The notes: a model not told the origin generated them from the letters alone. Counted from the stretch's first letter, positions 44,764-58,020 are shown. The stretch: 64,000 bases of DNA from Promethearchaeota archaeon (GCA_048939995.1 JBHLOY010000001.1:224001-288000); one strand, 5' to 3'. Translations and numbers: made by a program.

Positions 44764-46185
44764 ATGATAAAATTTAGTGATAAACAATTAAAGATACCTA
44801 AATTGATGAGACCAGTATATCTGGCTACAGTAGGAATGTCTAAATTTGATAGAGCTTTTCCAGAGACTCGCACTGAAGAGCTTTGCGTTGATGCATTTAC
44901 TGCTGCTGCTGATTTTGTGAATATGACCCCTTCTGAATTAAAAAGTTATATTCATACATGTTATTATGGTCATTTTGCGGATCATTTTGGTGATCAACTC
45001 CTTGGAGAGGCTGTTATTCATGATAGATTAGGTTTAGATCCATTGGGAAATATTGGTGTAAAAACAGGTGGCGCAACTGGAGGATCAGCCATGTGGGAAG
45101 CTGTTAAGACAGTAGCCTCAGGGTATAGTGATTGTGCTCTAGCATTGGGGTGGGAGAGGATGGATGAAGTTCCTACGGATGAGGGAAATCATTTAATTTC
45201 ATGTGCTGCAGACAAGGATTGGGAAACTCCATTAGGTCATATTTATACTGGCTATTATGCTGTAATGGCTCAGAGGTATTGGAAAATATTTGGCAAAGAA
45301 GAACCTTCTTTTAGAGATACAATGGCAGAAATTGCAGTAAAAAATCGTGGATATGCTAGAATGAATCCTCATGCTCAAGGTCCTATGAAGATCACAATAG
45401 AAGATGTTAAAAATTCGCCCATAGTAGCTTATCCTCTAAGAGCTTTAGATTGCTGTTTAATGAGTGTAGGATCTGCATGTGGAATCGTTTGTGATGAGAA
45501 GACAGCTTATGAGATTACAGACAAACCGCTCAGAATTTATATTGCTGCCGGAAGTCACACACTAAGAGTGGCTGATCGAAGAAATATGAATATCCCATTA
45601 TTACCTAATGAAGAACCAGGTCAATATGACAATTTGGGTAAGCAATTTCCAGGAGGAGATCGATATCCTGGTTTCACGGGTTTTTTGGCTGCTCGTATGG
45701 CAGCCTATTATGCTTATAGAATGGCTGGTGTGATGGATCCAACAGATGATTTAGATATTGTTGAATTGCATGATGCATTTACAATCAGTGATATTCAAAC
45801 CTATGAAGATATAGGAATACGACCATATGGTCATGGGCGCGAATATATTGAATCTGGTGATGCTTATGTTATTAATCCAAAAACCAATAAGCCTGGAAAA
45901 TTACCTAGCAATCCATGTGGGGGCCTAATAGGTTGCATGCACGCTGTAGGAGCTACTGGATTAATGCAAATAGCTGAAATCGGTTATCATATATGGAATA
46001 GATGGGATGAAATTCATGAACCAAAAGAAAAATGGAAAGCATTTGATCGTGAAAAGCCAGAAGATTGGACGAGTTTACAAGTCAAAGGTGCTAAGCGTGG
46101 ATTAGCTATAAGTCATGCAGGTGTAGGCTCTCATGTAACTTGTACTATTTTAATGGATCCAAATCATTTAATTAAGGAGGATTGA
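44764..46185 (+). CDS. SCP2-type thiolase-fold protein lacking the N-terminal catalytic Cys
   Basis: VKTGGATGGSA at the usual xCxSG site, GWERM, AVKN, ELHDAFT, NPCGGLIGCMHAVGATG. Confidence 0.88.
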   Translation: MIKFSDKQLKIPKLMRPVYLATVGMSKFDRAFPETRTEELCVDAFTAAADFVNMTPSELKSYIHTCYYGHFADHFGDQLLGEAVIHDRLGLDPLGNIGVKTGGATGGSAMWEAVKTVASGYSDCALALGWERMDEVPTDEGNHLISCAADKDWETPLGHIYTGYYAVMAQRYWKIFGKEEPSFRDTMAEIAVKNRGYARMNPHAQGPMKITIEDVKNSPIVAYPLRALDCCLMSVGSACGIVCDEKTAYEITDKPLRIYIAAGSHTLRVADRRNMNIPLLPNEEPGQYDNLGKQFPGGDRYPGFTGFLAARMAAYYAYRMAGVMDPTDDLDIVELHDAFTISDIQTYEDIGIRPYGHGREYIESGDAYVINPKTNKPGKLPSNPCGGLIGCMHAVGATGLMQIAEIGYHIWNRWDEIHEPKEKWKAFDREKPEDWTSLQVKGAKRGLAISHAGVGSHVTCTILMDPNHLIKED

Positions 46186-46189
46186 AAAG

Positions 46190-46792
46190 ATGCCTAAACT
46201 AGAAGATGAAAAGGGATTTGTTAAAATTGTGAAAGGAAAGTATAAACCTCGAGGGAAATTTCATAATATCGAAAAAAATCAACCAATTTATAATGAAGAT
46301 ACAGGAATGTTAGCAGGAGTTACAAATCCAAGAGATATGACCTATATTCATTCATATGGTGGAGAAAGTATCTTTTTTGAATCATTGGGGAAAGGAAAAT
46401 TAATGGCAACCCGTTGTGATAATGATAAATGCGAGTCAAAGGGATCCATCTTTGAACCTTTTAGAATCTACTGTCCTGATTGCTTGAGAAAAGCTACTGT
46501 TGTTGACATTACCCAAAAAGCTCAAGATTCTGCTAAGATTCATTCATTTATTATCACCCATCGTTCAGGAGCTTTTAATACACTTCCTAAACCAATAAAG
46601 TTCATAAACGTTGAGTTTGATGAAGAAGTAGTAACAATTCTTATGAGTGTATTAGTTGTAGGAGAGCCTGAAATTGGAGAAAGAGTCGTACCAATTTTCC
46701 GAACCAAAAGCCCAACTTATACAATTATGGATTTAATGTTTGTTATTAAAGGTACATCTGAGGCAGAGTTACCAGAAGGATTTACTTTCTAG
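46190..46792 (+). CDS. DUF35/ChsH2-type Zn-ribbon plus OB-fold protein
   Basis: FFESLGKGKLMATRCDNDKC...FEPFRIYCPDC, PEIGERVVPIF; immediately after the thiolase. Confidence 0.88.
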   Translation: MPKLEDEKGFVKIVKGKYKPRGKFHNIEKNQPIYNEDTGMLAGVTNPRDMTYIHSYGGESIFFESLGKGKLMATRCDNDKCESKGSIFEPFRIYCPDCLRKATVVDITQKAQDSAKIHSFIITHRSGAFNTLPKPIKFINVEFDEEVVTILMSVLVVGEPEIGERVVPIFRTKSPTYTIMDLMFVIKGTSEAELPEGFTF

Positions 46793-48185: not shown

Positions 48186-49157
48186 ATGTCTAATGTATTG
48201 ACATCATGGCGTGATAAGTGTATAATTACTTGTGCTCTTACGGGCTCAGCTACAATACCATCTCAAACACCTTATTTACCAATAACTCCTGAAGAGATCG
48301 CTGAAGAAGCTAAAAAAGCATGTGATGCAGGTGCAGCTGTTGTTCATGTTCATGTTAGAGACCCTAAAACTGCTATGCCATCTTCGGATTTGGGGATTTG
48401 GAGAGAGACTCTCGAGAAAATTAAATCTAAAACTAATGTGATAGTTTGTTGCACAACTGGAGGAGGTGCTGGAATGACGGCAGAAGAAAGAATTTCTGTA
48501 GTGCCAGAATTTAAACCAGAGATGTGTTCATTTAATTGTGAATCCATGAATTTTTCAATTTTTCCATTATTGGAAAGAATTCAAGAGTGGAAGTATCCTT
48601 GGGAAAAAGCACTTGTAACTATGAGTAAAGGATTAGTTTTTCAGAATAGTTTTGTAGATTTAGAGAAATTTGTTAAAACCATGTATGAAAATAATGTTAA
48701 ACCTGAACTTGAAATTTACAGCACCAGTGGTCTCTGGAATGCGGGGGCTATGGTTAGATTTGGATGGTTAAAACTTCCTCTTCATATGCAATTTGTATTA
48801 GGAGTATTAGGTGGAACAGGAAACACTCCCTGGGAATTGATGCATTTACATACTGAAGCTTTTAGACTTCTTGGAGAGAGAAATTTCACTTGGTCCGTGA
48901 TTGGGCTAGGATATCCGAGAGAGTTTCATTTAGGAGCAATTTCAGCAACAATGGGTGGCCATATAAGAGTTGGTTTAGAAGATAATATCTCTTTAGGATA
49001 TGATGTTGAAAAGAAGGAACGAATATTGGCGAAAAGTAATGCTGAATTAGTTGAAAAAATGGTAAGAATAGTTAATGACTTGGGGCGTGAAGTAGCTACT
49101 CCTGATGAAGCAAGAAAAATGCTCAAACTTAAAGGTCTTGATAAAGTTAACTATTAA
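48186..49157 (+). CDS. Beta-keto acid cleavage enzyme (Kce/BKACE, DUF849)
   Basis: IITCALTG, LPITPEEIA, AGAAVVHVHVRD, TTGG, PELEIY, GGHIRVGLEDN, SNAELV, ATPDEAR. Confidence 0.95.
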   Translation: MSNVLTSWRDKCIITCALTGSATIPSQTPYLPITPEEIAEEAKKACDAGAAVVHVHVRDPKTAMPSSDLGIWRETLEKIKSKTNVIVCCTTGGGAGMTAEERISVVPEFKPEMCSFNCESMNFSIFPLLERIQEWKYPWEKALVTMSKGLVFQNSFVDLEKFVKTMYENNVKPELEIYSTSGLWNAGAMVRFGWLKLPLHMQFVLGVLGGTGNTPWELMHLHTEAFRLLGERNFTWSVIGLGYPREFHLGAISATMGGHIRVGLEDNISLGYDVEKKERILAKSNAELVEKMVRIVNDLGREVATPDEARKMLKLKGLDKVNY

Positions 49158-49337
49158 AATTAGGAGATTTTTTCTTTTTTTTATTTTAAACAAAACTGTT
49201 AAAGATCTTGCCAGAAAGTTAAATCATCACAGATTTATCATATTCTATTTATCTAATTAAAAATTATTAATATAAGATTCTATCAATAATATATTAATTT
49301 CAATTTAAATGACTAAAAAGTAATTAGGTAAGTCAAG

Positions 49338-50480
49338 ATGGATAAAGTTGCGATAGTAGGAGTTGCTCAAACTAAATATGAAGCAGAGAAGATAGATCAA
49401 ACATATATGGAGCTTGTCTTTGAAGTTGTAAAGAAATTATATAATGATCTAGGAATAATTAATGATGATGTTGGGTCTGTTATAACAAGTTCAAACGATT
49501 TTAATGATGGTAGAACTATTGCTAATATGGGAATTCAAGATGCTGTAGGATCAATTGGAAAATCAGAATCTAGAGTCTCTGGTGATGGTGCTTTTGCGTA
49601 TGTTTATGCTGCAATGAGAATACTATCTAGAGAATATGACACTGTAATGGTTGTTTCTCATTGTAAGTGTTCTGAAGTGAATCAGTATCTTGTAAATAAT
49701 ACTATTTTTGATCCATATTATCAAAGACATTTAGGTTTAGATCAAATCTCTTCTGCTGGCTTAATGGCAAATATGTATATGACAAAATATGGCATAACTA
49801 AAGAACAGGCAGCCAAAGTGGTAGTAAAGAACAGAAAAAATGCTCTAAATAATCCTTATGCTCACTTACAGAAAGAAGTATCCCGTGAGGAAGTCCTCAA
49901 TTCACCAATGATGGCTTATCCCTTAAAAAAATTAGAATTTCCACCTTTTTCAGATGGTGCAGTTGCAATGTTGTTAACTAATGAGAAAATAGCAAGAAAG
50001 TTCACAGATACTCCTGTATGGTTAAAAGGATATGGAAATTGTACTGATGCATATTATCTAGGACATCGTAATATGACAGACTTGATTGGACTTGAATTAG
50101 CTGCAAAAGAAGCATATAAAATGGCAGATATTAAAAATCCTGTGGAAGAATTAGATGTTGCTGAAGTTTATGATGCTTTTTCGGTTCATGAATTGATGAG
50201 TTATGAAGCTTTGGGTTTCTGTAACAAGGGAAAGGGTGGTGAATTTATGGATAGTGGTCAATCTTATATGAATGGAAATATACCAGTAAATCCCTCAGGA
50301 GGTGTGCTTTCAAGTAATCCAACAATGGCAAATGGTCTGATTCGCGTAGCAGAAATTGCTCTCCAATTAATGGGTAAAGCTGATAAGAGACAGATTAATG
50401 GTGCTAAAATAGGTTTAGCAAATGGCATGAATGGAATATGTTCCCAAGGAAATTGCGTTTTAATTTTTGGAGGTGAATAA
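49338..50480 (+). CDS. Thiolase-fold protein, Ltp4-like (non-thiolytic, aldolase-type)
   Basis: SSNDFNDGR, ESRVSGDGAFA (no Cys), FDPYY, SDGA, LGHRN, EVYDAF, NPSGGVLSSNPTMANGLIR, GICSQGNCV. Confidence 0.85.
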   Translation: MDKVAIVGVAQTKYEAEKIDQTYMELVFEVVKKLYNDLGIINDDVGSVITSSNDFNDGRTIANMGIQDAVGSIGKSESRVSGDGAFAYVYAAMRILSREYDTVMVVSHCKCSEVNQYLVNNTIFDPYYQRHLGLDQISSAGLMANMYMTKYGITKEQAAKVVVKNRKNALNNPYAHLQKEVSREEVLNSPMMAYPLKKLEFPPFSDGAVAMLLTNEKIARKFTDTPVWLKGYGNCTDAYYLGHRNMTDLIGLELAAKEAYKMADIKNPVEELDVAEVYDAFSVHELMSYEALGFCNKGKGGEFMDSGQSYMNGNIPVNPSGGVLSSNPTMANGLIRVAEIALQLMGKADKRQINGAKIGLANGMNGICSQGNCVLIFGGE

Positions 50481-50484
50481 GAGA

Positions 50485-51651
50485 ATGGCTAAAAATGATG
50501 TGGCTATTGTTGGGATAGGGCAAACAAAATTTAGAAGTAAACGGAGAGATGTAAATATTCCTGAAATGATCTATGAAGCCACAAAAATGGCTTTGGATGA
50601 TGCTCAACTTGAACCTAAAGATATTGACGCCATAATTATTGGCAATATGGACCATTTTGAAGGAGTTAATTTCTCAGAAATGTGGTGTGGAATTGATGCA
50701 GCACCAGGTTATTTAAAGCCAGTTGTTAAAGTTGCAACAGGTGGTACAACTGGAAGTTCATTAGCAATTTGCGGATATTATAATGTTGCTTCAGGAATTT
50801 ATGATAAAGTACTGGTTATTGGGTGGGAAAAATTAAATGAAGGAGGAGCAACAACAGGGATCATTACCGCTTTTGATCCCGTTTGGGAAAGACCATCATT
50901 AGCAGGAGCTTTAGGTCCTTTGGCTCTTATGGCAAGTACCTACGCAGCAAAATACGGAATAACACCAGAACAAGCTGCAAAAGTAACAGTTAAAAATAGA
51001 AGTAATGCAGCAAACAATCCATTTGCTCATCTACAAATGCCTAATATCACTGTAGATTATGTAATGAGCTCTCAATTGATATCTCCTCCTTTAAGACTGC
51101 ATGATTGCTGCCCTCAGAGTGAAGGTGCTTGCGCAATTATTTATGCTAATAAGGAAGAAACGAAGAAGATAAGAGACAACCCCGCGTGGGTTCATTCAGT
51201 TGCAACAGCTCATTATTATACTTATGGAACCGATACATTAATGTACGATTTGCCTTCAGCAACCATAGCTGCAAAAGTGGCTTATAAAAAGGCTGGGATT
51301 AAAGATCCCGTTAAAGATTTAGACGTTGCTGAAATTTATGAACCTACTTCTTGGAGCGAGTTAGCATGGACAGAAGGTCTACTTTTCTGTGAAAAGGGAG
51401 AGGGTGGGAAAATACTAGATGAAGGAATTACTCAAATGAGCGGTGAATTACCTGTTAATCCATCAGGTGGCGTTTTAAGTACTAATCCCATTGGGGCCAC
51501 AGCTTTAGTACGAGTAGCAGAAGCAGCAACCCAAGTAATGGGTAGAGGTGAAAAGAGACAAGTCCCAGAAGTAGAGAAAGCTCTTTCTATGGGATTTGGA
51601 GGAAGTTTATGGACTGAATTATTAATATTAGGTAAAGAACCAATGAGGTGA
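50485..51651 (+). CDS. Thiolase-fold protein, Ltp3-like (non-thiolytic, aldolase-type)
   Basis: GIGQTKFRSKRRDV, DHFEGV, KVATGGTTGSS (no Cys), GWEK, NPFAHLQ, CPQSEGAC, EIYEPTSWSELAW, NPSGGVLSTNPIGAT. SD GGAGGTGA at 50469-76, ATG 50485. Confidence 0.88.
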   Translation: MAKNDVAIVGIGQTKFRSKRRDVNIPEMIYEATKMALDDAQLEPKDIDAIIIGNMDHFEGVNFSEMWCGIDAAPGYLKPVVKVATGGTTGSSLAICGYYNVASGIYDKVLVIGWEKLNEGGATTGIITAFDPVWERPSLAGALGPLALMASTYAAKYGITPEQAAKVTVKNRSNAANNPFAHLQMPNITVDYVMSSQLISPPLRLHDCCPQSEGACAIIYANKEETKKIRDNPAWVHSVATAHYYTYGTDTLMYDLPSATIAAKVAYKKAGIKDPVKDLDVAEIYEPTSWSELAWTEGLLFCEKGEGGKILDEGITQMSGELPVNPSGGVLSTNPIGATALVRVAEAATQVMGRGEKRQVPEVEKALSMGFGGSLWTELLILGKEPMR

Positions 51652-51656
51652 ACTTA

Positions 51657-52145
51657 ATGAGTAAAAAGAAAAACCAAGAAAAAGTATTTGAGATAAAATG
51701 GAAAACAGATCTACCATATCGATATTCAATTGGAAAACTCGCTGTCAAGTTTTTTGAAGAACTAAAAATGAATAAGAAAATTTTAGGTAGTAAGTGTTCA
51801 AAATGCGGTAAGGTTCACTTTCCTCCAAGAGCCGTATGCGCAGATTGTTTAGTTGAGATGACTATTAAAGATATGGTGGAATTGTCCACAAGAGGTACTT
51901 TAGCAGGGTTTACAGTTGTAAATTATCCTTTTATTGACCCCAATACAGGTGGTATGCGCCCATTTCCTTATGGTTATGCTATATTCAAGTTAGATGGGGC
52001 AGATACATATACTATGCATTTCTTGGATGAAACCGATCATACCAAAATGCGTGTTGGCCAGCGAGTTGAGGCTGTATTCAAAGAGGAAAGAGAAGGAAAT
52101 ATCGGTGATATTCCATACTTTAGAATTATAAAGGAGGAAAAATAA
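51657..52145 (+). CDS. DUF35/ChsH2-type Zn-ribbon plus OB-fold protein
   Basis: GSKCSKCGKVHFPPRAVCADC, LDGADT, MRVGQRVEAVF. SD GAGGTGA at 51645-51. Confidence 0.92.
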   Translation: MSKKKNQEKVFEIKWKTDLPYRYSIGKLAVKFFEELKMNKKILGSKCSKCGKVHFPPRAVCADCLVEMTIKDMVELSTRGTLAGFTVVNYPFIDPNTGGMRPFPYGYAIFKLDGADTYTMHFLDETDHTKMRVGQRVEAVFKEEREGNIGDIPYFRIIKEEK

Positions 52146-52158
52146 CGAGGTGAATCTA

Positions 52159-52608
52159 ATGGGAGAAGAGATTGAAAAGAAAATATTTAAAGGAAGGATT
52201 AAAGTTCCTTACAAACATACTGCTGGGGCTTATGTAGAGAAGTTTATTACACATATTGGAAAGGAACATAAAATTATGGGAGTTAAGTGCCCAAAATGCA
52301 AAAAAGTGTTTGTTCCTCCAAAAATGATATGTTTTGAATGCTTTGAAAAAATGGAAGAATGGATTGAAGTAGAAAATATTGGCACAGTGACAGGTTTCAC
52401 TGTTATTACGCATTCTACACCTGTGTTGCCATTGGAATCCCCCTTTGCTTATGCCAGAATTAGATTAAACGGCGCAGATACCGATTTTGTACATTTGATA
52501 AATGAAAGTGATCCTAATAAGTTACGCGTTGGTATGAAAGTTGAAGCTGTTTTTAAAGAAAAACCAAGAAAAAGAATCTTAGATATTGAGTATTTTAAAC
52601 CAATATAA
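52159..52608 (+). CDS. DUF35/ChsH2-type Zn-ribbon plus OB-fold protein (tandem paralogue)
   Basis: GVKCPKCKKVFVPPKMICFEC, LNGADT, LRVGMKVEAVF. SD GAGGTGA at 52147-53. Confidence 0.92.
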   Translation: MGEEIEKKIFKGRIKVPYKHTAGAYVEKFITHIGKEHKIMGVKCPKCKKVFVPPKMICFECFEKMEEWIEVENIGTVTGFTVITHSTPVLPLESPFAYARIRLNGADTDFVHLINESDPNKLRVGMKVEAVFKEKPRKRILDIEYFKPI

Positions 52609-52623
52609 TAAAAGATTAATTTC

Positions 52624-52634
52624 TTTTTTTTTTT
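52624..52634 (+). terminator. Oligo-T tract, probable archaeal terminator of the ltp4-ltp3-DUF35-DUF35 unit
   Basis: T11 run shortly after the stop codon at 52608. Confidence 0.45.
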
Positions 52635-52678: not shown

Positions 52679-53503
52679 ATGAGTGAAAATGTTATCTTAA
52701 TTGAAGAGGATGAGGATAAAACTATTACAACCATAAAAATGAATCGGATTGCGAAAAAGAATGCAATCAATTATGATTTAATGGTAGGTCTTCAAAAAGC
52801 TATAGATCAAGTGGAACGCTCTGATACAAGGGTTGTCATCATCACTGGTGGAGATGAATTATTTAGCTCTGGAATTGATTTAAACTTCCTAACTGGGCAA
52901 GAAAAAGATCCTGAGGGCGTAATACCTGATTTACGAGTTCCAAGAAATTTCAGATACTTTGCTAATACATGGATTCATTCAATATTCACAAAAATTGAAA
53001 AAATGGAAAAACCAGTAATCGCTAAAATCAACGGTTATTGCTTTGGAATGGCATTTGAGCTTGCTTTGGCGTGTGACTTTCGATTTTGCACCGAATCGGC
53101 TCAATTTCACATGCTTGAAAGTAAGATCGGTATGAACCCAGATGTGGGGGGTACAATAAGGTTAACAAGGCTTGTAGGTATTCAAAATGCTAAAGATATA
53201 ATTTTAACTGGACGTATGTTTGATGGAAATGAAGCTTATAGATTAGGAGTCGTAAATCGAGTAACTAAAACACACCAAGAATTAGATTCTATAATTAAAA
53301 TGTATACAGATGAGCTTATAGACAGCGCACCTCTAGCTGTAGGGCTTACTAAAAAATTAATTGATGATTGTTATGGCAAGGATACTGCTTTTGGACTAGA
53401 GCTTGAAACTTTGGTAAGTTCACAATTGCTTCAAACAAAAGATGCTGTATCTGGAGCTTTAGCAAGATTACAGAAAACAAAACCAAAATGGAAATGGAAA
53501 TAA
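52679..53503 (+). CDS. Enoyl-CoA hydratase/isomerase family protein
   Basis: MNRIAKKNA, FSSGIDL, KPVIAKINGYCFGMAFELALACDFR, ESKIGMNPDVGG. Confidence 0.93.
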   Translation: MSENVILIEEDEDKTITTIKMNRIAKKNAINYDLMVGLQKAIDQVERSDTRVVIITGGDELFSSGIDLNFLTGQEKDPEGVIPDLRVPRNFRYFANTWIHSIFTKIEKMEKPVIAKINGYCFGMAFELALACDFRFCTESAQFHMLESKIGMNPDVGGTIRLTRLVGIQNAKDIILTGRMFDGNEAYRLGVVNRVTKTHQELDSIIKMYTDELIDSAPLAVGLTKKLIDDCYGKDTAFGLELETLVSSQLLQTKDAVSGALARLQKTKPKWKWK

Positions 53504-55276: not shown

Positions 55277-56473
55277 TTAGGTTAAAGTTAAATCAAGATG
55301 GATATCTGTTAAAGGATAAGAGACACAGGGATGAATAAATCCAAAATCCTTGTCAACTTCACGGATAGTGACCCAAGGAGGTACAAAAATTTTTCCAGAG
55401 ATCAATTTTGTTCTGCATAATGCACACTCTCCTGAACGACAGCCATTTGCAATTCCAATCCCCGGTAATTTTAGACGTTCTATACTATTTAGAAGTGGTT
55501 CTATACAAGAAGCTTTAAATTCTATTTTTTCAGCAGCACTACCTTTCCTAAGATCAATTTCTATTTTAATCTCCTGTGAAGCATCAACTTCTTTTGGCCA
55601 TCCCATAATTTGGGCTATATCTTCTGGAATTCCAAATGCTTCATAATAGATTTTATGTTCTGGCACCCCTATAGTACTCATTTCAGCTTTAATAAATTCA
55701 TACATAGGAAGATTTCCTACAACATAGAAATACTTGTTCTTTATTGAACCTATCTCATTTAAAATCTTATCTTTTGTAATGAAGCCGCATTCTCCACTCC
55801 AATCAGGCTCTGGTTCAGATAATATGAATTTTATCCTTATATTTGTCCTTCTTTTTTGAATATCTTCTAATTCATCTCTAAAGAGAATATCTTTTTCAGT
55901 TAAACAGCCATAAATCAGTGAAATATTCAATGGTAAAGCTTTCTCAGAGATGTCTCTTAGCATCGAAATAAATGGAGTTATCCCGCATCCTCCAGCGATA
56001 AATACAAGATGATCTCCATGAAAGAGAGGGTTATAAAATAAGTTTCCTAAAGGTTCAGTTGCTTCATAAATATCTCCGATCTTTGCAGATTCGAATAAGT
56101 AAGGACTAACAAAGCCACCTTGCTTCTTTCTAATGCCTAACTCATAATAAGCAAGTTGATTAGGTGATGATACTAATGAATAAGGACGTGATGTTCTGAC
56201 TCCATCAATTTCCAAAGTAACACCTATGTATTGGCCCGCCCGAAATGGTGCTAAAGCCTTTTTTGGTTTCGCTGATATAAATCGAAATAATTTTGTATCA
56301 TGAGAAAGGTCTTCAATATCAGTTAGTTTTAGTAATTGATTTCCAGGATGTATTCTTTCACATAAATTTTCTAAACCATCAAAATACCAAGGAATTGGTT
56401 GAATTTCTTCACGCAACTTTTTCAATTTTTCAGCTTTTTGATATTTCTTTATATCTTCCATCATGTTTACCAT
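55277..56473 (-). CDS. FAD/NAD(P)-binding FNR-type reductase with C-terminal 2Fe-2S ferredoxin (KshB/PaaE/Hcr architecture)
   Basis: FRAGQY, RPYSLVSSP, GGFVS, IAGGCGITPFISM, YEAFG, CRSGECALC...HPC. Confidence 0.92.
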   Translation of the reverse strand: MVNMMEDIKKYQKAEKLKKLREEIQPIPWYFDGLENLCERIHPGNQLLKLTDIEDLSHDTKLFRFISAKPKKALAPFRAGQYIGVTLEIDGVRTSRPYSLVSSPNQLAYYELGIRKKQGGFVSPYLFESAKIGDIYEATEPLGNLFYNPLFHGDHLVFIAGGCGITPFISMLRDISEKALPLNISLIYGCLTEKDILFRDELEDIQKRRTNIRIKFILSEPEPDWSGECGFITKDKILNEIGSIKNKYFYVVGNLPMYEFIKAEMSTIGVPEHKIYYEAFGIPEDIAQIMGWPKEVDASQEIKIEIDLRKGSAAEKIEFKASCIEPLLNSIERLKLPGIGIANGCRSGECALCRTKLISGKIFVPPWVTIREVDKDFGFIHPCVSYPLTDIHLDLTLT

Positions 56474-58020
56474 CTCCCTTCGATTTTATCTTTTAAATAA
56501 ATCCCTGAAGCAATCCTACCTCCAAGTATGGTGGAAGAAAAACCACCTCCAAAATTTGTCCATGCACCTACTTGATAAAGTCCAGGAATTGCCCCTCTAC
56601 TAGTTAATCTAAATAATGGCCCGTTAGTGACATCTTGAGTTGTACCATAAATAGCACCTTCAAGATTCTTCGAATATCGGTAGTATGTTAGAGGACTTGC
56701 TGCTACAGCAACTTCTATATAGTCTCGGATTTCTGGACATATTGTTTCTTCCACTAATGAGATCATACCATCCGCGATTTCATCCTTAAGCTGAAAGTAT
56801 TGATCTGGGGGGACACTTTGCCATAGTTTACCCATTTGTAAAGTAGTTAATACAAGTTGTGTTGTCCCAGGAGGTGATATATCCTCATAAATATGATTAT
56901 AGCAGGCCGCTACGATATATTTCGGTACCTCTAATTTGTGAAACATTTCATATGCTTCATTCATATTGTAACTATTATTGATGAAGGTCTCGTGAGCAGT
57001 TAAGCCCAAGTCTTTATAAGAAGCGTTCAGTCCAATATAAACTGAGAATCCTGAGGGTCCAATCTCAGGGGTATAAATTTTTTTCTTGTATTCTTCAGGA
57101 ACAGTCTCAGGTGGTAACATTTTCATTGTAGTACATATTGGGTTAACATTAGAAATCAGTGCCTTACACTTGTAAATGTCTCCATTAATCAATTCCACAC
57201 CGCAAACTCTTCCATTTTCTACTAATACCTTATTTACTAAAGCATTATATCTTATTTCTCCGCTAAACTTTTCAAATGCTTCGACCATTGCGTTTACTAA
57301 TGAATGAGATCTTCCCATAGGAAATGCTGCGCCCCATTTTAAATAAAAGATTAACATGGCAATAAAGGCATATGCATTTAATCTATCTGGTGGTAATCCA
57401 ACGTATCCCCAAAGTTGTGAAATTAGAGCAATCAACTTCTTGTCAGTAAAGAATTTTGAGTATAATTCAGATAAGGTAATACCAGAGACACGTGGAAGCC
57501 AAGGATGATCTTTAAGAACTTCTTGAGGCTTGAATTTCCCTCTTTTTGAAGCAACATATTCAATTCCTCTTAATACCGCTTTACACATCTCCATGAATTC
57601 TTCTATACCTTTTTTTTCGGAAGGAAAAAGCTCAATTAATTTTGCAGTGTATTCTTCTACACCCAATGGCATTGTAATGTCAAATCCATCGAGAAATACA
57701 CTTCTATAAAATTCTGGCACTTGTTTAAATTGTAATCTATCCGGAATAATTTCTAATCTCTCTAAAAAGCGATATAAACTGCCTTTATTATCTTTTGTGC
57801 CTATATCACTAAGTTCATGAAGTGCACCTTCAAATTCGAATCTTCCTCGTACGAAAGAAGTAGCAAAACCTCCTGGAACATTATGTTTTTCGAGTAATAA
57901 AACTTTTTCTCCTCTTAATACCAATTGACATGCTGCACCAAGTCCTCCAAGTCCAGCTCCAACAACTATAACTGGATATGTAGAAATAACTCTATTCTCA
58001 TCATAAGTACTATTTATCAT
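56467..58020 (-). CDS. Phytoene desaturase/retinol saturase (CrtI/RetSat)-family FAD oxidoreductase
   Basis: VVGAGLGGL, LLEKHNVPGGFATSFVRGRFEFE, FPMGRS, ASPLTYYRYS...GAIYG, IPGLYQVGAW..GGG. Confidence 0.88.
   Translation of the reverse strand: MINSTYDENRVISTYPVIVVGAGLGGLGAACQLVLRGEKVLLLEKHNVPGGFATSFVRGRFEFEGALHELSDIGTKDNKGSLYRFLERLEIIPDRLQFKQVPEFYRSVFLDGFDITMPLGVEEYTAKLIELFPSEKKGIEEFMEMCKAVLRGIEYVASKRGKFKPQEVLKDHPWLPRVSGITLSELYSKFFTDKKLIALISQLWGYVGLPPDRLNAYAFIAMLIFYLKWGAAFPMGRSHSLVNAMVEAFEKFSGEIRYNALVNKVLVENGRVCGVELINGDIYKCKALISNVNPICTTMKMLPPETVPEEYKKKIYTPEIGPSGFSVYIGLNASYKDLGLTAHETFINNSYNMNEAYEMFHKLEVPKYIVAACYNHIYEDISPPGTTQLVLTTLQMGKLWQSVPPDQYFQLKDEIADGMISLVEETICPEIRDYIEVAVAASPLTYYRYSKNLEGAIYGTTQDVTNGPLFRLTSRGAIPGLYQVGAWTNFGGGFSSTILGGRIASGIYLKDKIEGRW

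What the first reader, a model, noticed from the sequence alone, without database searches (positions are those of the whole stretch)
49338..52608. Ltp4-Ltp3-DUF35-DUF35 operon: archaeal counterpart of the C24-branched sterol side-chain retro-aldolase
Seen: four tightly spaced genes, the three internal ones each behind a GAGGTGA SD, ending in a T11 tract. Both thiolase-fold proteins lack the Cys nucleophile, have Tyr at the HDxF His position (EVYDAF, EIYEPT) and Asn for the GHP His (SSNP, STNP). Motifs match mycobacterial Ltp4 (SSD...GR, ES.V..D.A.A, DPY, NPM.AAGL.R) and Ltp3 (GQTK...KR.DV, D.FEGV, EIY.P.SW.E..W, GGVLS.NPIGA) as recalled. Established: Ltp3/Ltp4 are needed for beta-sitosterol-type C24-branch removal, and the related Ltp2-DUF35 is a Tyr-dependent retro-aldolase. 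The actinobacterial double DUF35 is here two genes. Inference: a four-subunit retro-aldolase. Homologues also occur in other anaerobes, so the substrate may be a non-sterol branched acyl-CoA.
Basis: partly seen in the sequence, partly recalled or inferred. Interest (0 to 1): 0.78.

Follow-up and report, generated by a model that had tools for sequence, protein, structure and literature searches.

The report
Cysteine-less thiolase pair with DUF35 partners
A Loki-type Asgard archaeon has a four-gene operon for two thiolase-shaped proteins that have lost the thiolase catalytic residues plus two zinc-ribbon docking proteins. It is a real but distant relative of the bacterial Ltp3/Ltp4 sterol side-chain "aldol-lyase", is widespread in anaerobes, and probably cuts an unknown non-sterol acyl-CoA.

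Summary
Four tightly coupled genes (49338-52608) encode two SCP-x-type thiolase-fold paralogues (T1, T2) and two DUF35 proteins (D1, D2), behind GAGGTGA sites and ending in a T11 tract.

- **Lost residues:** both T proteins lack the nucleophilic Cys and both catalytic His.
- **Homology:** I fetched genuine Ltp4-Ltp3-tandem-DUF35 loci from Tsukamurella and Nocardia. T2 falls in a clade with Ltp3 (support 100/98). T1 falls with Ltp4 (91/99). Ltp2 lies outside both.
- **Orthology:** it is only family-level. A second cassette in the same genome sits nearer Ltp3 than T2 does.
- **Catalytic subunit:** the Tyr at the Ltp2/Sal base position is in 85 of 85 T2-family sequences but only 44 of 76 T1-family sequences. 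Ltp4 has His there. T2 is probably catalytic and T1 a scaffold.
- **Distribution:** the cassette is widespread in anaerobic bacteria and archaea, often beside a BKACE gene.
- **Substrate:** a sterol is unlikely. The genome has no acyl-CoA carboxyltransferase, which the C24-branch route needs.

Retro-aldolase activity is inferred, not shown. This scan has reported the same module on other DNA. I rate it a new variant of a known, barely characterised kind, of moderate interest.

The parts
49158..49337 (+). AT-rich intergenic spacer upstream of the operon. It follows the T-rich tract (49172-49192) that ends the BKACE gene and is the presumed promoter region.
   Evidence: Sequence read. The promoter itself was not mapped.
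49338..50480 (+). T1: a 380-aa SCP-x-type thiolase-fold protein of the Ltp4 family. Its active-site positions are degenerate (G84, Y278-D-A-F, N327). It is the probable non-catalytic partner subunit.
   Evidence: Pfam; NCBIfam (PRK07937, 191.7 bits, below the cut-off of 419); motifs; tree (T1+Ltp4 clade, 91/99).
50470..50477 (+). Shine-Dalgarno-like GGAGGTGA for T2, overlapping the end of T1.
50485..51651 (+). T2: a 388-aa SCP-x-type thiolase-fold protein of the Ltp3 family. It has G87 at the nucleophile position, an invariant Y285 (Y-E-P-T) at the Ltp2/Sal catalytic-base position, and N334. It is the probable catalytic subunit.
   Evidence: (PRK08313, 372.6 bits, best hit); tree (T2+Ltp3 clade, 100/98); AlphaFold2 pLDDT 89.9, thiolase fold.
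51337..51339 (+). Codon of T2 Tyr285, the proposed catalytic base.
   Evidence: Tyr is present in 85 of 85 T2-family sequences. It aligns with the Y of the Nocardia Ltp2 YDHF motif, which is the Y294DHF base of TcLtp2 according to PMC12329534.
51645..51651 (+). GAGGTGA Shine-Dalgarno-like site for D1, overlapping the T2 stop codon.
51657..52145 (+). D1: a 162-aa DUF35 protein (Cys4 zinc ribbon plus OB fold).
   Evidence: It is fused to D2 in genus g4 (L014, L016; P0156-P0158).
52147..52153 (+). GAGGTGA Shine-Dalgarno-like site for D2.
52159..52608 (+). D2: a 149-aa DUF35 protein (Cys4 zinc ribbon plus OB fold), 38% identical to D1.
52624..52634 (+). T11 tract, the likely archaeal terminator of the operon.
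52679..53503 (+). Crotonase-type enoyl-CoA hydratase directly downstream, the candidate supplier of the beta-hydroxyacyl-CoA substrate.
   Evidence: Pfam. The adjacency is conserved in L013, L023, L024 and L056. Its weak best NCBIfam hit is EchA19 (166 bits, cut-off 400).
48186..49157 (+). BKACE (beta-keto acid cleavage enzyme) directly upstream, a recurrent neighbour of the cassette.
   Evidence: Pfam. BKACE lies within the fetched flanks in 12 of 14 Asgard loci and 27 of 78 other loci. Best NCBIfam hit: 3,5-dioxohexanoate:acetyl-CoA transferase, 351 bits, below the cut-off of 430.

Best explanation
The operon encodes a predicted 1:1:1:1 complex. It has a pseudo-symmetric heterodimer of two ancient thiolase-fold paralogues (T1 of the Ltp4 family, T2 of the Ltp3 family), and each paralogue is capped by one DUF35 zinc-ribbon/OB protein (D1, D2). 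This would be the heteromeric counterpart of the alpha-beta-beta-alpha Ltp2-DUF35 and Sal-DUF35 aldolases. It cannot be a thiolase. T2 keeps an invariant Tyr at the position of the Ltp2/Sal catalytic base and a Gly where thiolases have the nucleophile. T2 most likely catalyses retro-aldol (reversibly, aldol) cleavage of the C-alpha-C-beta bond of a beta-hydroxyacyl-CoA made by the adjacent crotonase, releasing acetyl- or propionyl-CoA plus a carbonyl compound. T1 is probably a structural partner. The complex works inside an anaerobic acyl-CoA breakdown island (ligase, acyl-CoA dehydrogenase, two hydratases, BKACE, CrtI-like flavoprotein with reductase, SCP2, Fe-ADH). Its role would be to pass positions that a 3-hydroxyacyl-CoA dehydrogenase and a thiolase cannot process. 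The substrate is unknown. A beta-branched or isoprenoid-like acyl chain is my guess, and a sterol is unlikely. What is shown: gene structure, lost thiolase residues, family membership, conservation pattern and gene context. What is inferred: the complex, the catalytic subunit, the aldolase chemistry and the substrate class.
For: - **Lost residues:** Cys and both His are absent, judged against 6esq and the genome's own canonical thiolase.
- **Phylogeny:** T2+Ltp3 clade 100/98; T1+Ltp4 clade 91/99; T1 and T2 are sister families (91/99), with Ltp2 just outside (100/96).
- **Reference sequences are genuine:** Tsukamurella Ltp4 scores 593 bits on PRK07937 and Ltp3 scores 734 bits on PRK08313. They lie in a cluster with fadD19-, echA19-, cyp- and fadA5-type genes.
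- **Best hits:** T2's best NCBIfam family is PRK08313 (372.6 bits against 265.8 for the next). T2 and Ltp3 are reciprocal best hits at 42% identity.
- **Conservation:** the T2 family has Gly 85/85, Tyr 85/85 and Pro at +2 in 78/85, with 56 positions at least 95% conserved. T1 has 31 such positions and Tyr in only 44/76.
- **Catalytic-base position:** this Tyr is the base in TcLtp2 (Y294DHF) and CtSal (Y302DCY) (PMC12329534).
- **Stoichiometry:** D1 and D2 are fused into one tandem-DUF35 protein in Lokiarchaeial genus g4 (P0156-P0158). The nearest other long relatives of D1 include a Mycobacterium tandem OB-fold protein and a DUF35-MaoC hydratase fusion (P0167).
- **Cassette conservation:** T1, T2 and DUF35 genes occur together in 14 of 14 Asgard loci, and T1 and DUF35 in 64 and 63 of 78 other loci, from Thermodesulfobacteriota, Spirochaetota, Chloroflexota, Acidobacteriota, Bacillota and Methanolliviera.
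- **Hydratase:** a crotonase is adjacent and the adjacency is conserved.
- **Published role of relatives:** a review describes Ltp3-Ltp4 as a heteromeric aldol-lyase on genetic grounds (PMC6678751).
Against: - No enzyme of the Ltp3/Ltp4 family has been assayed, so 'aldolase' rests on analogy with Ltp2 and Sal.
- The second catalytic residue of those enzymes is missing. The Ltp2 Tyr344 position is Asn, and the Sal Cys304 position is Pro (T2) or Ala (T1). No alternative general acid was identified.
- The fold search cannot separate aldolases from thiolases (TM 0.83-0.92 to both).
- Complex formation could not be modelled, because only single chains can be folded here.
- Bacterial versions of the cluster also carry a class-I thiolase and a 3-hydroxyacyl-CoA dehydrogenase, so what the cassette adds there is unclear.
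- The frequent BKACE and CoA-transferase neighbours point to beta-keto acid or acetoacetate chemistry, which a simple aldolase model does not explain.
Confidence: 0.55

Rival explanations
1. It uses other chemistry in the same fold. The complex acts on beta-keto compounds (for example decarboxylation or hydrolysis of a 3-oxoacyl- or malonyl-type CoA ester, as reported for the Tyr-containing SCP2-thiolase-like protein TbSLP) and feeds or drains the neighbouring BKACE and acetoacetate CoA-transferase.
For: BKACE lies in 12 of 14 Asgard and 27 of 78 other loci, and CoA-transferase in 3 of 14 and 14 of 78. Jordarchaeial loci place two BKACE genes and CoA-transferase A/B subunits next to the cassette. 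TbSLP carries YDCF at the same motif and was reported to decarboxylate (PMC12329534). No general acid for an aldolase is evident in T2.
Against: The nearest outgroup with known function is Ltp2, an aldolase. [quoted passage not shown] A hydratase, not a dehydrogenase, is the conserved immediate neighbour in Lokiarchaeia.
Confidence: 0.15
2. It is a catalytically inert scaffold. The complex would be a pseudoenzyme that binds acyl-CoA or lipid and organises or channels between neighbouring enzymes (ECH, ACAD, BKACE), as DUF35 does in the thiolase/HMG-CoA synthase complex.
For: All canonical thiolase residues are lost in both subunits. T1 active-site positions drift freely, even between close orthologues. 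DUF35 proteins are known scaffolds (bioRxiv 10.1101/2024.07.05.601840).
Against: T2 keeps 56 positions at least 95% conserved. These include an invariant Tyr, Gly and Asn at the three former catalytic sites, across phyla and in Ltp3. That pattern indicates selection on a remodelled active site. Deleting ltp3 or ltp4 blocks a specific catabolic step in Rhodococcus (Wilbrink 2012, as cited in PMC6678751).
Confidence: 0.1
3. It does the same job as actinobacterial Ltp3/Ltp4: aldol cleavage of the carboxylated, hydrated C24 branch of phytosterol side chains.
For: Family membership of T1, T2 and D1/D2. An LLM-class F420-type oxidoreductase, a crotonase and an acyl-CoA ligase lie near the genes in both Tsukamurella/Nocardia and the window.
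Against: No carboxyltransferase (PF01039) was found in this 98%-complete genome, although the published route needs carboxylation of C28 (PMC6678751). The fetched Asgard loci show no cytochrome P450 or steroid-ring genes. The organism is a sediment-type anaerobe. The window cassette belongs to a subclade shared with sulfate reducers, syntrophs and alkane-oxidising archaea, not to the Ltp3/Ltp4 branch.
Confidence: 0.03
4. It is a ketothiolase/DUF35 pair of the archaeal fatty-acid synthase or mevalonate pathway (Claisen condensation), as 'acetyl-CoA C-acetyltransferase' annotations and counts of KT/DUF35 pairs in Asgard genomes imply.
For: Database names such as acetyl-CoA C-acetyltransferase. 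KT/DUF35 pairs are reported as abundant in Asgard genomes (bioRxiv 10.1101/2024.07.05.601840). The fold matches 6esq at TM 0.92.
Against: The nucleophilic Cys, the HDCF His and Cys, and the GHP His are all absent from both proteins. The genome has its own Cys-bearing SCP-x-type thiolase with a DUF35 partner (L110) and four class-I/II thiolases.
Confidence: 0.03

Closest known systems
Ltp3-Ltp4 with the tandem-DUF35 protein of actinobacterial sterol catabolism (M. tuberculosis Rv3523/Rv3522/Rv3521 type; examined here in Tsukamurella NZ_LR134446.1 and Nocardia NZ_LN868939.1)
   Same: Both have two adjacent, paralogous, Cys-less SCP-x-type thiolase-fold genes plus two DUF35 modules. T2 and Ltp3 share Gly at the nucleophile site, Y-x-P, and a one-residue deletion plus Asn at GHP. 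T1 and Ltp4 share the same deletion plus Asn. The clades are supported at 100/98 and 91/99. A crotonase, an acyl-CoA ligase and an LLM-class oxidoreductase lie nearby.
   Different: The gene order is T1-T2-D1-D2 rather than DD-Ltp4-Ltp3, and the DUF35 modules are two genes here (though fused in a sister genus). Identity is only 42% (T2/Ltp3) and 26% (T1/Ltp4), and scores fall below the NCBIfam cut-offs. Ltp4 has His where T1 has Tyr. The host is an anaerobic archaeon with BKACE as a neighbour, no sterol genes and no carboxylase. The biochemistry of Ltp3/Ltp4 is itself unmeasured.
Ltp2-ChsH2(DUF35) (PDB 6ok1) and Sal-Shy(DUF35) (PDB 9myr) steroid side-chain retro-aldolases
   Same: They share the thiolase fold without the nucleophile Cys (Gly instead), Tyr in place of the HDCF His as catalytic base, and an obligatory DUF35 partner. 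Ltp2 is the nearest characterised outgroup in the tree.
   Different: Those enzymes are homodimers with two identical DUF35 domains, each fused to a MaoC hydratase. Here there is a heterodimer with two free-standing DUF35 proteins and a crotonase-type hydratase. The second catalytic residue (Tyr344 or Cys304) is not conserved.
Archaeal acetoacetyl-CoA thiolase/HMG-CoA synthase/DUF35 complex (PDB 6esq/6et9) and the S. acidocaldarius ketothiolase-DUF35 fatty-acid synthase complex
   Same: They share the SCP-x-type thiolase fold (TM 0.91-0.92) and a DUF35 scaffold protein encoded in the same operon.
   Different: Those thiolases keep Cys, His and His and perform Claisen chemistry. T1 and T2 have lost all three.
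ST0096 thiolase-like protein of Sulfolobus tokodaii (PDB 4yzo)
   Same: It is the best PDB sequence hit for both T1 and T2 (E-values 1e-50 and 2e-46). It is archaeal and also lacks the nucleophile Cys.
   Different: It keeps both His residues (HD.. and GHP), like the other Cys-less class in this genome (Thl473 and the 422-aa protein). Its function is unknown.

Membership tests
Ltp3 family (NCBIfam NF006180 / PRK08313) | Whole-protein HMM score at or above the curated cut-off (514 bits) | tested here: not met
   T2 scores 372.6 bits. This is its best family by more than 100 bits but is below the cut-off. Genuine Tsukamurella Ltp3 scores 734 bits.
Ltp3 family (NCBIfam NF006180 / PRK08313) | Falls in one clade with genuine Ltp3, apart from Ltp2, Ltp4 and true thiolases | tested here: met
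   IQ-TREE LG+C20, 67 sequences: a 22-tip clade (20 T2-like plus 2 Ltp3) with support 100/98. T2 and Ltp3 are reciprocal best BLAST hits.
Ltp3 family (NCBIfam NF006180 / PRK08313) | Signature residues: Gly for the nucleophile Cys, Y-x-P for H-D-C, and a deletion plus Asn for G-H | tested here: met
   T2 reads TGGTTG / YEPT / S.TNPIG. Ltp3 reads TAGSVG / YVPF / S.SNPIG. Tyr is present in 85 of 85 family members.
Ltp3/Ltp4 system | Adjacent Ltp4-type paralogue and two DUF35 modules | tested here: met
   The order here is T1-T2-D1-D2. Actinobacteria have DD-Ltp4-Ltp3. D1-D2 fusions exist in genus g4.
Ltp3/Ltp4 system | Acts in C24-branched sterol side-chain removal (sterol gene context, with prior carboxylation of the branch) | tested here: not met
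   No sterol-ring or P450 genes occur in the island. No PF01039 carboxyltransferase was found in the 98%-complete genome.
Ltp4 family (NCBIfam NF005924 / PRK07937) | HMM score at or above the cut-off (419 bits), or a reciprocal best hit with Ltp4 | tested here: not met
   T1 scores 191.7 bits, and its best NCBIfam hit is PRK08313 at 270 bits. T1's best actinobacterial BLAST hit is Ltp3. Ltp4's best hit in this genome is the C28 paralogue.
Ltp4 family (NCBIfam NF005924 / PRK07937) | Falls in one clade with genuine Ltp4 | tested here: met
   A 31-tip clade (29 T1-like plus 2 Ltp4) has support 91/99. Ltp4 is a long branch nested among short proteobacterial T1 proteins (100/96).
Ltp2/Sal-type thiolase-fold retro-aldolases | Tyr as catalytic base in place of the HDCF His | tested here: met
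   T2 Y285 and T1 Y278 align with the Y of Ltp2 YDHF. The role of this Tyr is taken from PMC12329534.
Ltp2/Sal-type thiolase-fold retro-aldolases | Second catalytic residue (Tyr344 of Ltp2 at the GHP His position, or Cys304 of Sal in YDCY) | tested here: not met
   Asn occupies the GHP position in both subunits. Pro (T2) or Ala (T1) occupies the Cys position.
Ltp2/Sal-type thiolase-fold retro-aldolases | Measured retro-aldol activity and an alpha-beta-beta-alpha complex with DUF35 | not testable with these tools
   No multimer modelling or assay is available. The single-chain model has pLDDT 89.9 and a thiolase fold.
Thiolases (including archaeal KT/DUF35 pairs) | Nucleophilic Cys plus the His and acid/base Cys of HDCF and the His of GHP | tested here: not met
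   All are absent from T1 and T2. They are present in the genome's own L110 thiolase (GACASS, HDCF, GHP).
DUF35 (Pfam PF12172 zf-ChsH2 + PF01796 OB_ChsH2_C) | Both domains score above the gathering thresholds, with a Cys4 ribbon | tested here: met
   D1 scores 41.5 and 40.5 bits. D2 scores 32.4 and 44.6 bits. CxxC-x10-CxxC is present in both translations.

The most novel reading that the evidence does not exclude
The T1-T2-D1-D2 complex, its hydratase and the recurrent BKACE form a thiolase-independent, oxygen-independent route that removes carbon from beta-branched (isoprenoid-like, possibly archaeal-lipid- or phytol-derived) acyl chains. It would be shared by Asgard archaea, alkane-oxidising archaea and many anaerobic bacteria. 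The actinobacterial sterol Ltp3/Ltp4 would then be one late, specialised offshoot of this older module.
Probability: 0.2. Interest if true: 0.8.

Novelty: new variant of a known kind. Interest (0 to 1): 0.55.

Why it matters
- **A large untested family.** The only studied relatives, Ltp3/Ltp4, are known from knock-outs in sterol-degrading actinobacteria and have never been assayed. This family is large and old and sits mainly in anaerobes. Its general substrate is therefore not a sterol, and a tractable homologue could finally define the chemistry.
- **Annotation and the 'lipid divide'.** Eight SCP-x-type thiolase-fold genes were found in this Asgard genome, and seven lack the nucleophilic Cys. 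Databases nevertheless call them acetyl-CoA acetyltransferases. Counts of 'ketothiolase/DUF35 pairs' have been used to argue that Asgard archaea can make fatty acids, and such counts need a residue check.
- **Anaerobic breakdown of branched lipids.** If the link with BKACE is functional, it points to an undescribed way of passing blocked positions in acyl chains without oxygen. That bears on how branched or isoprenoid lipids are degraded in anoxic sediments.

Tried and rejected
I studied synteny through the genome search, the fetch from genomes and the search for related loci instead.
- **Literature:** searches for PRK08313/PRK07937 and for BKACE plus DUF35 found nothing. 4yzo has no functional paper.
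- **Branch carboxylation then an HMG-CoA-lyase-like cleavage to a beta-keto acid for BKACE:** no carboxyltransferase (PF01039) was found in the genome or in the bacterial neighbourhoods I annotated.
- **Retro-aldol to a methyl ketone then acetone-carboxylase-type carboxylation:** no hydantoinase-B family gene was found.
- **DUF35-BKACE fusion** (a lead from earlier notes): not found in my 92 loci. Two apparently long BKACE ORFs (L085, L048) are ORF-calling artefacts of GC-rich DNA. The 'longer' BKACE search started at 567 aa, so it could not see a fusion of about 450 aa. The lead therefore remains open.
- **Fold search** as a way to separate aldolase from thiolase: uninformative.
- **"No canonical thiolase in the organism":** rejected. 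Four class-I/II thiolases with Cys lie elsewhere in the genome.
- **Crude ORF calling** in GC-rich loci makes the neighbour counts lower bounds.

Full report
**Observation**

The window is about 30% G+C and is contig C11:224001-288000 of a 3.75-Mb, 98%-complete genome bin. The best protein hits are named Promethearchaeota, Lokiarchaeota or Hodarchaeota, so the host is a Loki-type Asgard archaeon.

Four same-strand ORFs fill 49338-52608. Homologues of the second gene are 388-390 aa, so its true start is ATG 50485 and not the TTG at 50467. The real starts of genes 3 and 4 are ATG 51657 and ATG 52159.

- Each internal start lies 5-7 nt behind GGAGGTGA or GAGGTGA, which overlaps or abuts the preceding stop codon.
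- A T11 run follows the last stop.
- A T-rich tract and a 180-nt AT-rich spacer precede the first gene.

**What the genes are**

T1 (380 aa) and T2 (388 aa) match Thiolase_N plus the SCP-x-type Thiolase_C_1 domain. D1 and D2 match the zf-ChsH2 ribbon plus the OB_ChsH2_C domain, together known as DUF35. Both DUF35 proteins carry CxxC-x10-CxxC.

I aligned T1 and T2 with the M. thermolithotrophicus thiolase 6esq and with this genome's own canonical SCP-x-type thiolase, which reads GACASS, HDCF and GHP. All three catalytic sites are changed.

| Thiolase site | T1 | T2 |
|---|---|---|
| Nucleophile Cys | Gly84 | Gly87 |
| HDCF | Y278-D-A-F | Y285-E-P-T |
| GHP | one-residue deletion plus Asn327 | one-residue deletion plus Asn334 |

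The positions were confirmed. An AlphaFold2 model of T2 is confident (pLDDT 89.9, pTM 0.93) and superposes on SCP-x-type thiolases, Ltp2 and Sal alike (TM 0.83-0.92). The fold is certain but does not settle the chemistry.

**Test of the Ltp3/Ltp4 claim**

I needed genuine reference sequences. A tblastn search of the plasmid collection found two mis-filed chromosome pieces of Mycobacteriales. The Tsukamurella record carries this gene order: LLM F420 oxidoreductase ... crotonase - AMP-ligase - 309-aa OB-fold protein - 359-aa thiolase-domain protein - 390-aa thiolase-domain protein ... P450 - steroid 3-ketoacyl-CoA thiolase. That is the cholesterol-cluster arrangement.

- The 359-aa protein scores 593 bits on PRK07937 and the 390-aa protein 734 bits on PRK08313, both above their cut-offs. 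These two NCBIfam families therefore correspond to Ltp4 and Ltp3.
- A Nocardia protein scores 711 bits on PRK07855, the Ltp2 family.
- T2's best family is PRK08313 (372.6 bits against 265.8 for the next family), but it falls below the cut-off of 514.
- T1 scores only 191.7 bits on PRK07937.

I built an IQ-TREE (LG+C20+F+G4) tree of 67 thiolase-fold proteins. They comprised window and own-genome paralogues, Asgard orthologues, 80 loci from the search for related loci thinned at 72% identity, Ltp2, Ltp3 and Ltp4, and canonical thiolases. Support values are ultrafast bootstrap / SH-aLRT.

| Clade | Tips | Support |
|---|---|---|
| T2-like plus Ltp3 | 22 | 100/98 |
| T1-like plus Ltp4 | 31 | 91/99 |
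| T1 and T2 families as sisters | 53 | 91/99 |
| The above plus one further gene pair and Ltp2 with a Methanolliviera protein | 57 | 100/96 |

Homology at the family level is therefore real, and the T1/T2 duplication is old.

Specific orthology is not supported.

- The window's T2 sits in a 13-tip subclade with proteins of Thermodesulfobacteriota, Methanolliviera and other groups.
- Ltp3 groups (82/94) with a second cassette of this same genome, which has the order D-T1'-T2'-D (C28; L025).
- T2 and Ltp3 are reciprocal best hits at 42% identity.
- T1's best actinobacterial hit is Ltp3. Ltp4's best hit in this genome is the C28 paralogue at 31%, against 26% for T1.

**The DUF35 proteins**

D1 and D2 are 38% identical. 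Both halves of the actinobacterial tandem protein match them at 29-33% identity. In Lokiarchaeial genus g4 the two genes are fused into one 319-332-aa protein (P0156-P0158).

The next longer relatives of D1 include a 331-aa Mycobacterium OB-fold protein (38% identity) and a deltaproteobacterial DUF35-MaoC fusion. The fusions argue for equal amounts of D1 and D2 in one complex. That fits one DUF35 per thiolase-fold subunit, as in the solved Ltp2 and Sal complexes (PMC12329534).

**Which subunit works**

I compared conservation across the two families. The Asn count for T2 was part of my selection rule, so it carries no weight.

| Feature | T2 family (85 sequences, with Ltp3) | T1 family (76 sequences, with Ltp4) |
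|---|---|---|
| Nucleophile position | Gly 85/85 | Gly 74, Ala 2 |
| HDCF His position | Tyr 85/85 | Tyr 44, Ser 19, His 4, others 9 |
| Position +2 | Pro 78/85 | Ala 46, varied |
| Positions at least 95% conserved | 56 | 31 |

An orthologue of T1 from the same genus, 83% identical, reads SENF at this motif. One Jordarchaeial copy reads SEAF, and Ltp4 reads HAPF. This Tyr is the catalytic base of TcLtp2 (Y294DHF) and CtSal (Y302DCY). I infer that T2/Ltp3 is the catalytic subunit and T1/Ltp4 a structural partner.

The general acid of the known aldolases is not conserved. Ltp2 Tyr344 aligns with the GHP His, which is Asn here. Sal Cys304 aligns with Pro in T2 and Ala in T1.

**Distribution and context**

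In 150 other genomes of the phylum, close orthologues of T2 (at least 73% identity) occur in about half of the genomes of the window's own family. They also occur in 5 of 6 genomes of a family that corresponds to Jordarchaeia or Freyarchaeia. More distant copies (44-48%) occur in two other families.

Outside Asgard, a scan of species-representative genomes returned 80 loci at 53-59% identity. They come from Syntrophaceae and other Thermodesulfobacteriota (including the isolate Desulfatibacillum alkenivorans), Spirochaetota, Chloroflexota, Acidobacteriota, Bacillota, Ca. Methanolliviera and others. The gene order there is D-T1-T2-D or T1-T2-D-D.

Neighbours within the fetched flanks were counted. 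The figures are lower bounds because my ORF calling is crude in GC-rich DNA.

| Neighbour | Asgard loci (of 14) | Other loci (of 78) |
|---|---|---|
| BKACE | 12 | 27 |
| CrtI/amine-oxidase-like flavoprotein | 7 | 21 |
| Acyl-CoA dehydrogenase | 5 | 42 |
| Class-I thiolase | not seen | 22 |
| CoA-transferase | 3 | 14 |

In the window the order is acyl-CoA dehydrogenase(-), Thl473 plus a 200-aa partner, LLM, BKACE, [T1 T2 D1 D2], crotonase, Fe-ADH(-), SCP2(-), FNR-2Fe2S reductase(-), CrtI-like flavoprotein(-), a second crotonase(-) and a long-chain acyl-CoA ligase(-). A crotonase directly after D2 is conserved in five Lokiarchaeial loci.

The genome has four BKACE genes. It has no PF01039 carboxyltransferase and no hydantoinase-B or acetone-carboxylase homologue. 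The published C24-branch route needs carboxylation of the branch before hydration and cleavage (PMC6678751), so that route is unlikely here. The genome does hold four Cys-bearing class-I/II thiolases elsewhere.

**Mechanism**

My best reading is a T1-T2 heterodimer clamped by D1 and D2. T2 Tyr285 would deprotonate the beta-hydroxyl of a 3-hydroxyacyl-CoA delivered by the crotonase. That would break the C-alpha-C-beta bond to give acetyl- or propionyl-CoA and an aldehyde or ketone.

- **Shown:** the gene anatomy, the loss of thiolase residues, the family membership, the conservation asymmetry between T1 and T2, and the gene context.
- **Inferred:** the complex, the chemistry, the direction of the reaction and the substrate.

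The CrtI/HpnE-like flavoproteins, the SCP2 gene and the tertiary-carbinol substrates of Ltp2 and of the proposed Ltp3/Ltp4 reaction make a beta-branched, isoprenoid-like chain a reasonable guess. It is only a guess. The BKACE link is strong statistically but remains mechanistically unexplained. Close BKACE homologues (49-53% identity) are fused to ketopantoate-reductase-like dehydrogenases. This suggests their beta-keto acid comes from oxidation of a free beta-hydroxy acid.

**Rivals**

I considered four alternatives:

- other chemistry on beta-keto compounds;
- an inert scaffold;
- the sterol C24 role itself;
- a true ketothiolase.

The last two are disfavoured by the sequence and genome content given above.

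**Novelty**

I found no paper on the anaerobe cassette. The archaeal fatty-acid-synthase preprint counts ketothiolase/DUF35 pairs in Asgard genomes (3.8 per genome) without a residue check. Here only one of the eight SCP-x-type thiolase-fold genes has the Cys.

Earlier notes of this scan describe the same module in other genomes and reach similar readings. Their lead of a DUF35-BKACE fusion was not reproduced in my loci.

**Limits**

- No multimer modelling was possible.
- Neighbour labels rest on BLAST against a small reference set.
- Ltp4 is a long branch in the tree.

Noticed in passing
window 44764-46792 (+): A 473-aa thiolase-fold protein scores 675.6 bits on PRK06365, just under the cut-off of 695. 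It has TGGATG at the nucleophile site (no Cys) but keeps HDAF and GH. It is followed by a 200-aa partner with only a weak DUF35-like match (PF01796, 19.8 bits). This is a second, different Cys-less class, like PDB 4yzo.
   Followed up: partly
G000:C28:113.2-116.6 kb (L025:9201-12616): A second paralogous cassette in the same genome has the order DUF35-T1'-T2'-DUF35. T2' reads YSPF and TNAIG and scores 352 bits on PRK08313. In the tree it groups nearer actinobacterial Ltp3 than the window's T2 does.
   Followed up: partly
L026:2483-4616 (just beyond the window end, minus strand): An operon encodes a 422-aa Cys-less thiolase-fold protein (TGGATG, HDAF, GHAVG), a DUF35 protein and a small third gene (123 aa).
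   Followed up: partly
G000:C38:30117-31298 (L111:3079-4302, minus strand): A 407-aa SCP-x-type thiolase-like protein has Pro at the nucleophile position (NGPASG) but keeps HDAF and GHP. It scores 418 bits on PRK06064, just under the cut-off of 420, and lies next to an Fe-ADH gene.
   Followed up: no
window 55277-58020 (-): A CrtI/carotenoid-isomerase-like flavoprotein overlaps an FNR-type FAD/NAD/2Fe-2S reductase by 7 nt. Similar CrtI/HpnE-like genes (463 and 509 aa) recur beside the bacterial cassettes (21 of 78 loci). The link is therefore older than Asgard archaea.
   Followed up: partly
L014:8353-9351 and L016:8255-9214 (Lokiarchaeial genus g4): D1 and D2 are fused into one tandem-DUF35 protein with a short Lys/Glu-rich linker. 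This mirrors the actinobacterial Rv3521-type protein.
   Followed up: yes
L017, L018, L019 (Jordarchaeia/Freyarchaeia loci): The cassette lies beside one or two BKACE genes (81% identical to the window's), CoA-transferase A and B subunits, an OYE plus pyridine-nucleotide-disulphide reductase (FadH-like, 665 aa) and a lipoate-ligase-like gene. This is a different neighbourhood from the Lokiarchaeial island, but BKACE is again present.
   Followed up: partly
P0171-P0176: Proteins 49-53% identical to the window's BKACE are fused to a ketopantoate-reductase/3-hydroxyacyl-CoA-dehydrogenase-like NAD(P) domain (about 665 aa) in Firmicutes and metagenomes. This hints that a free beta-hydroxy acid is oxidised to the BKACE substrate.
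   Followed up: no
L015:982-4425 and L023:15177-18638: A third cassette type occurs in close relatives (a 414-aa and a 387-aa thiolase-fold protein plus two DUF35 proteins, with DDRF and YDPF motifs). It occupies the position where the window has Thl473 and its partner, and it branches just outside the T1+T2 superclade.
   Followed up: partly
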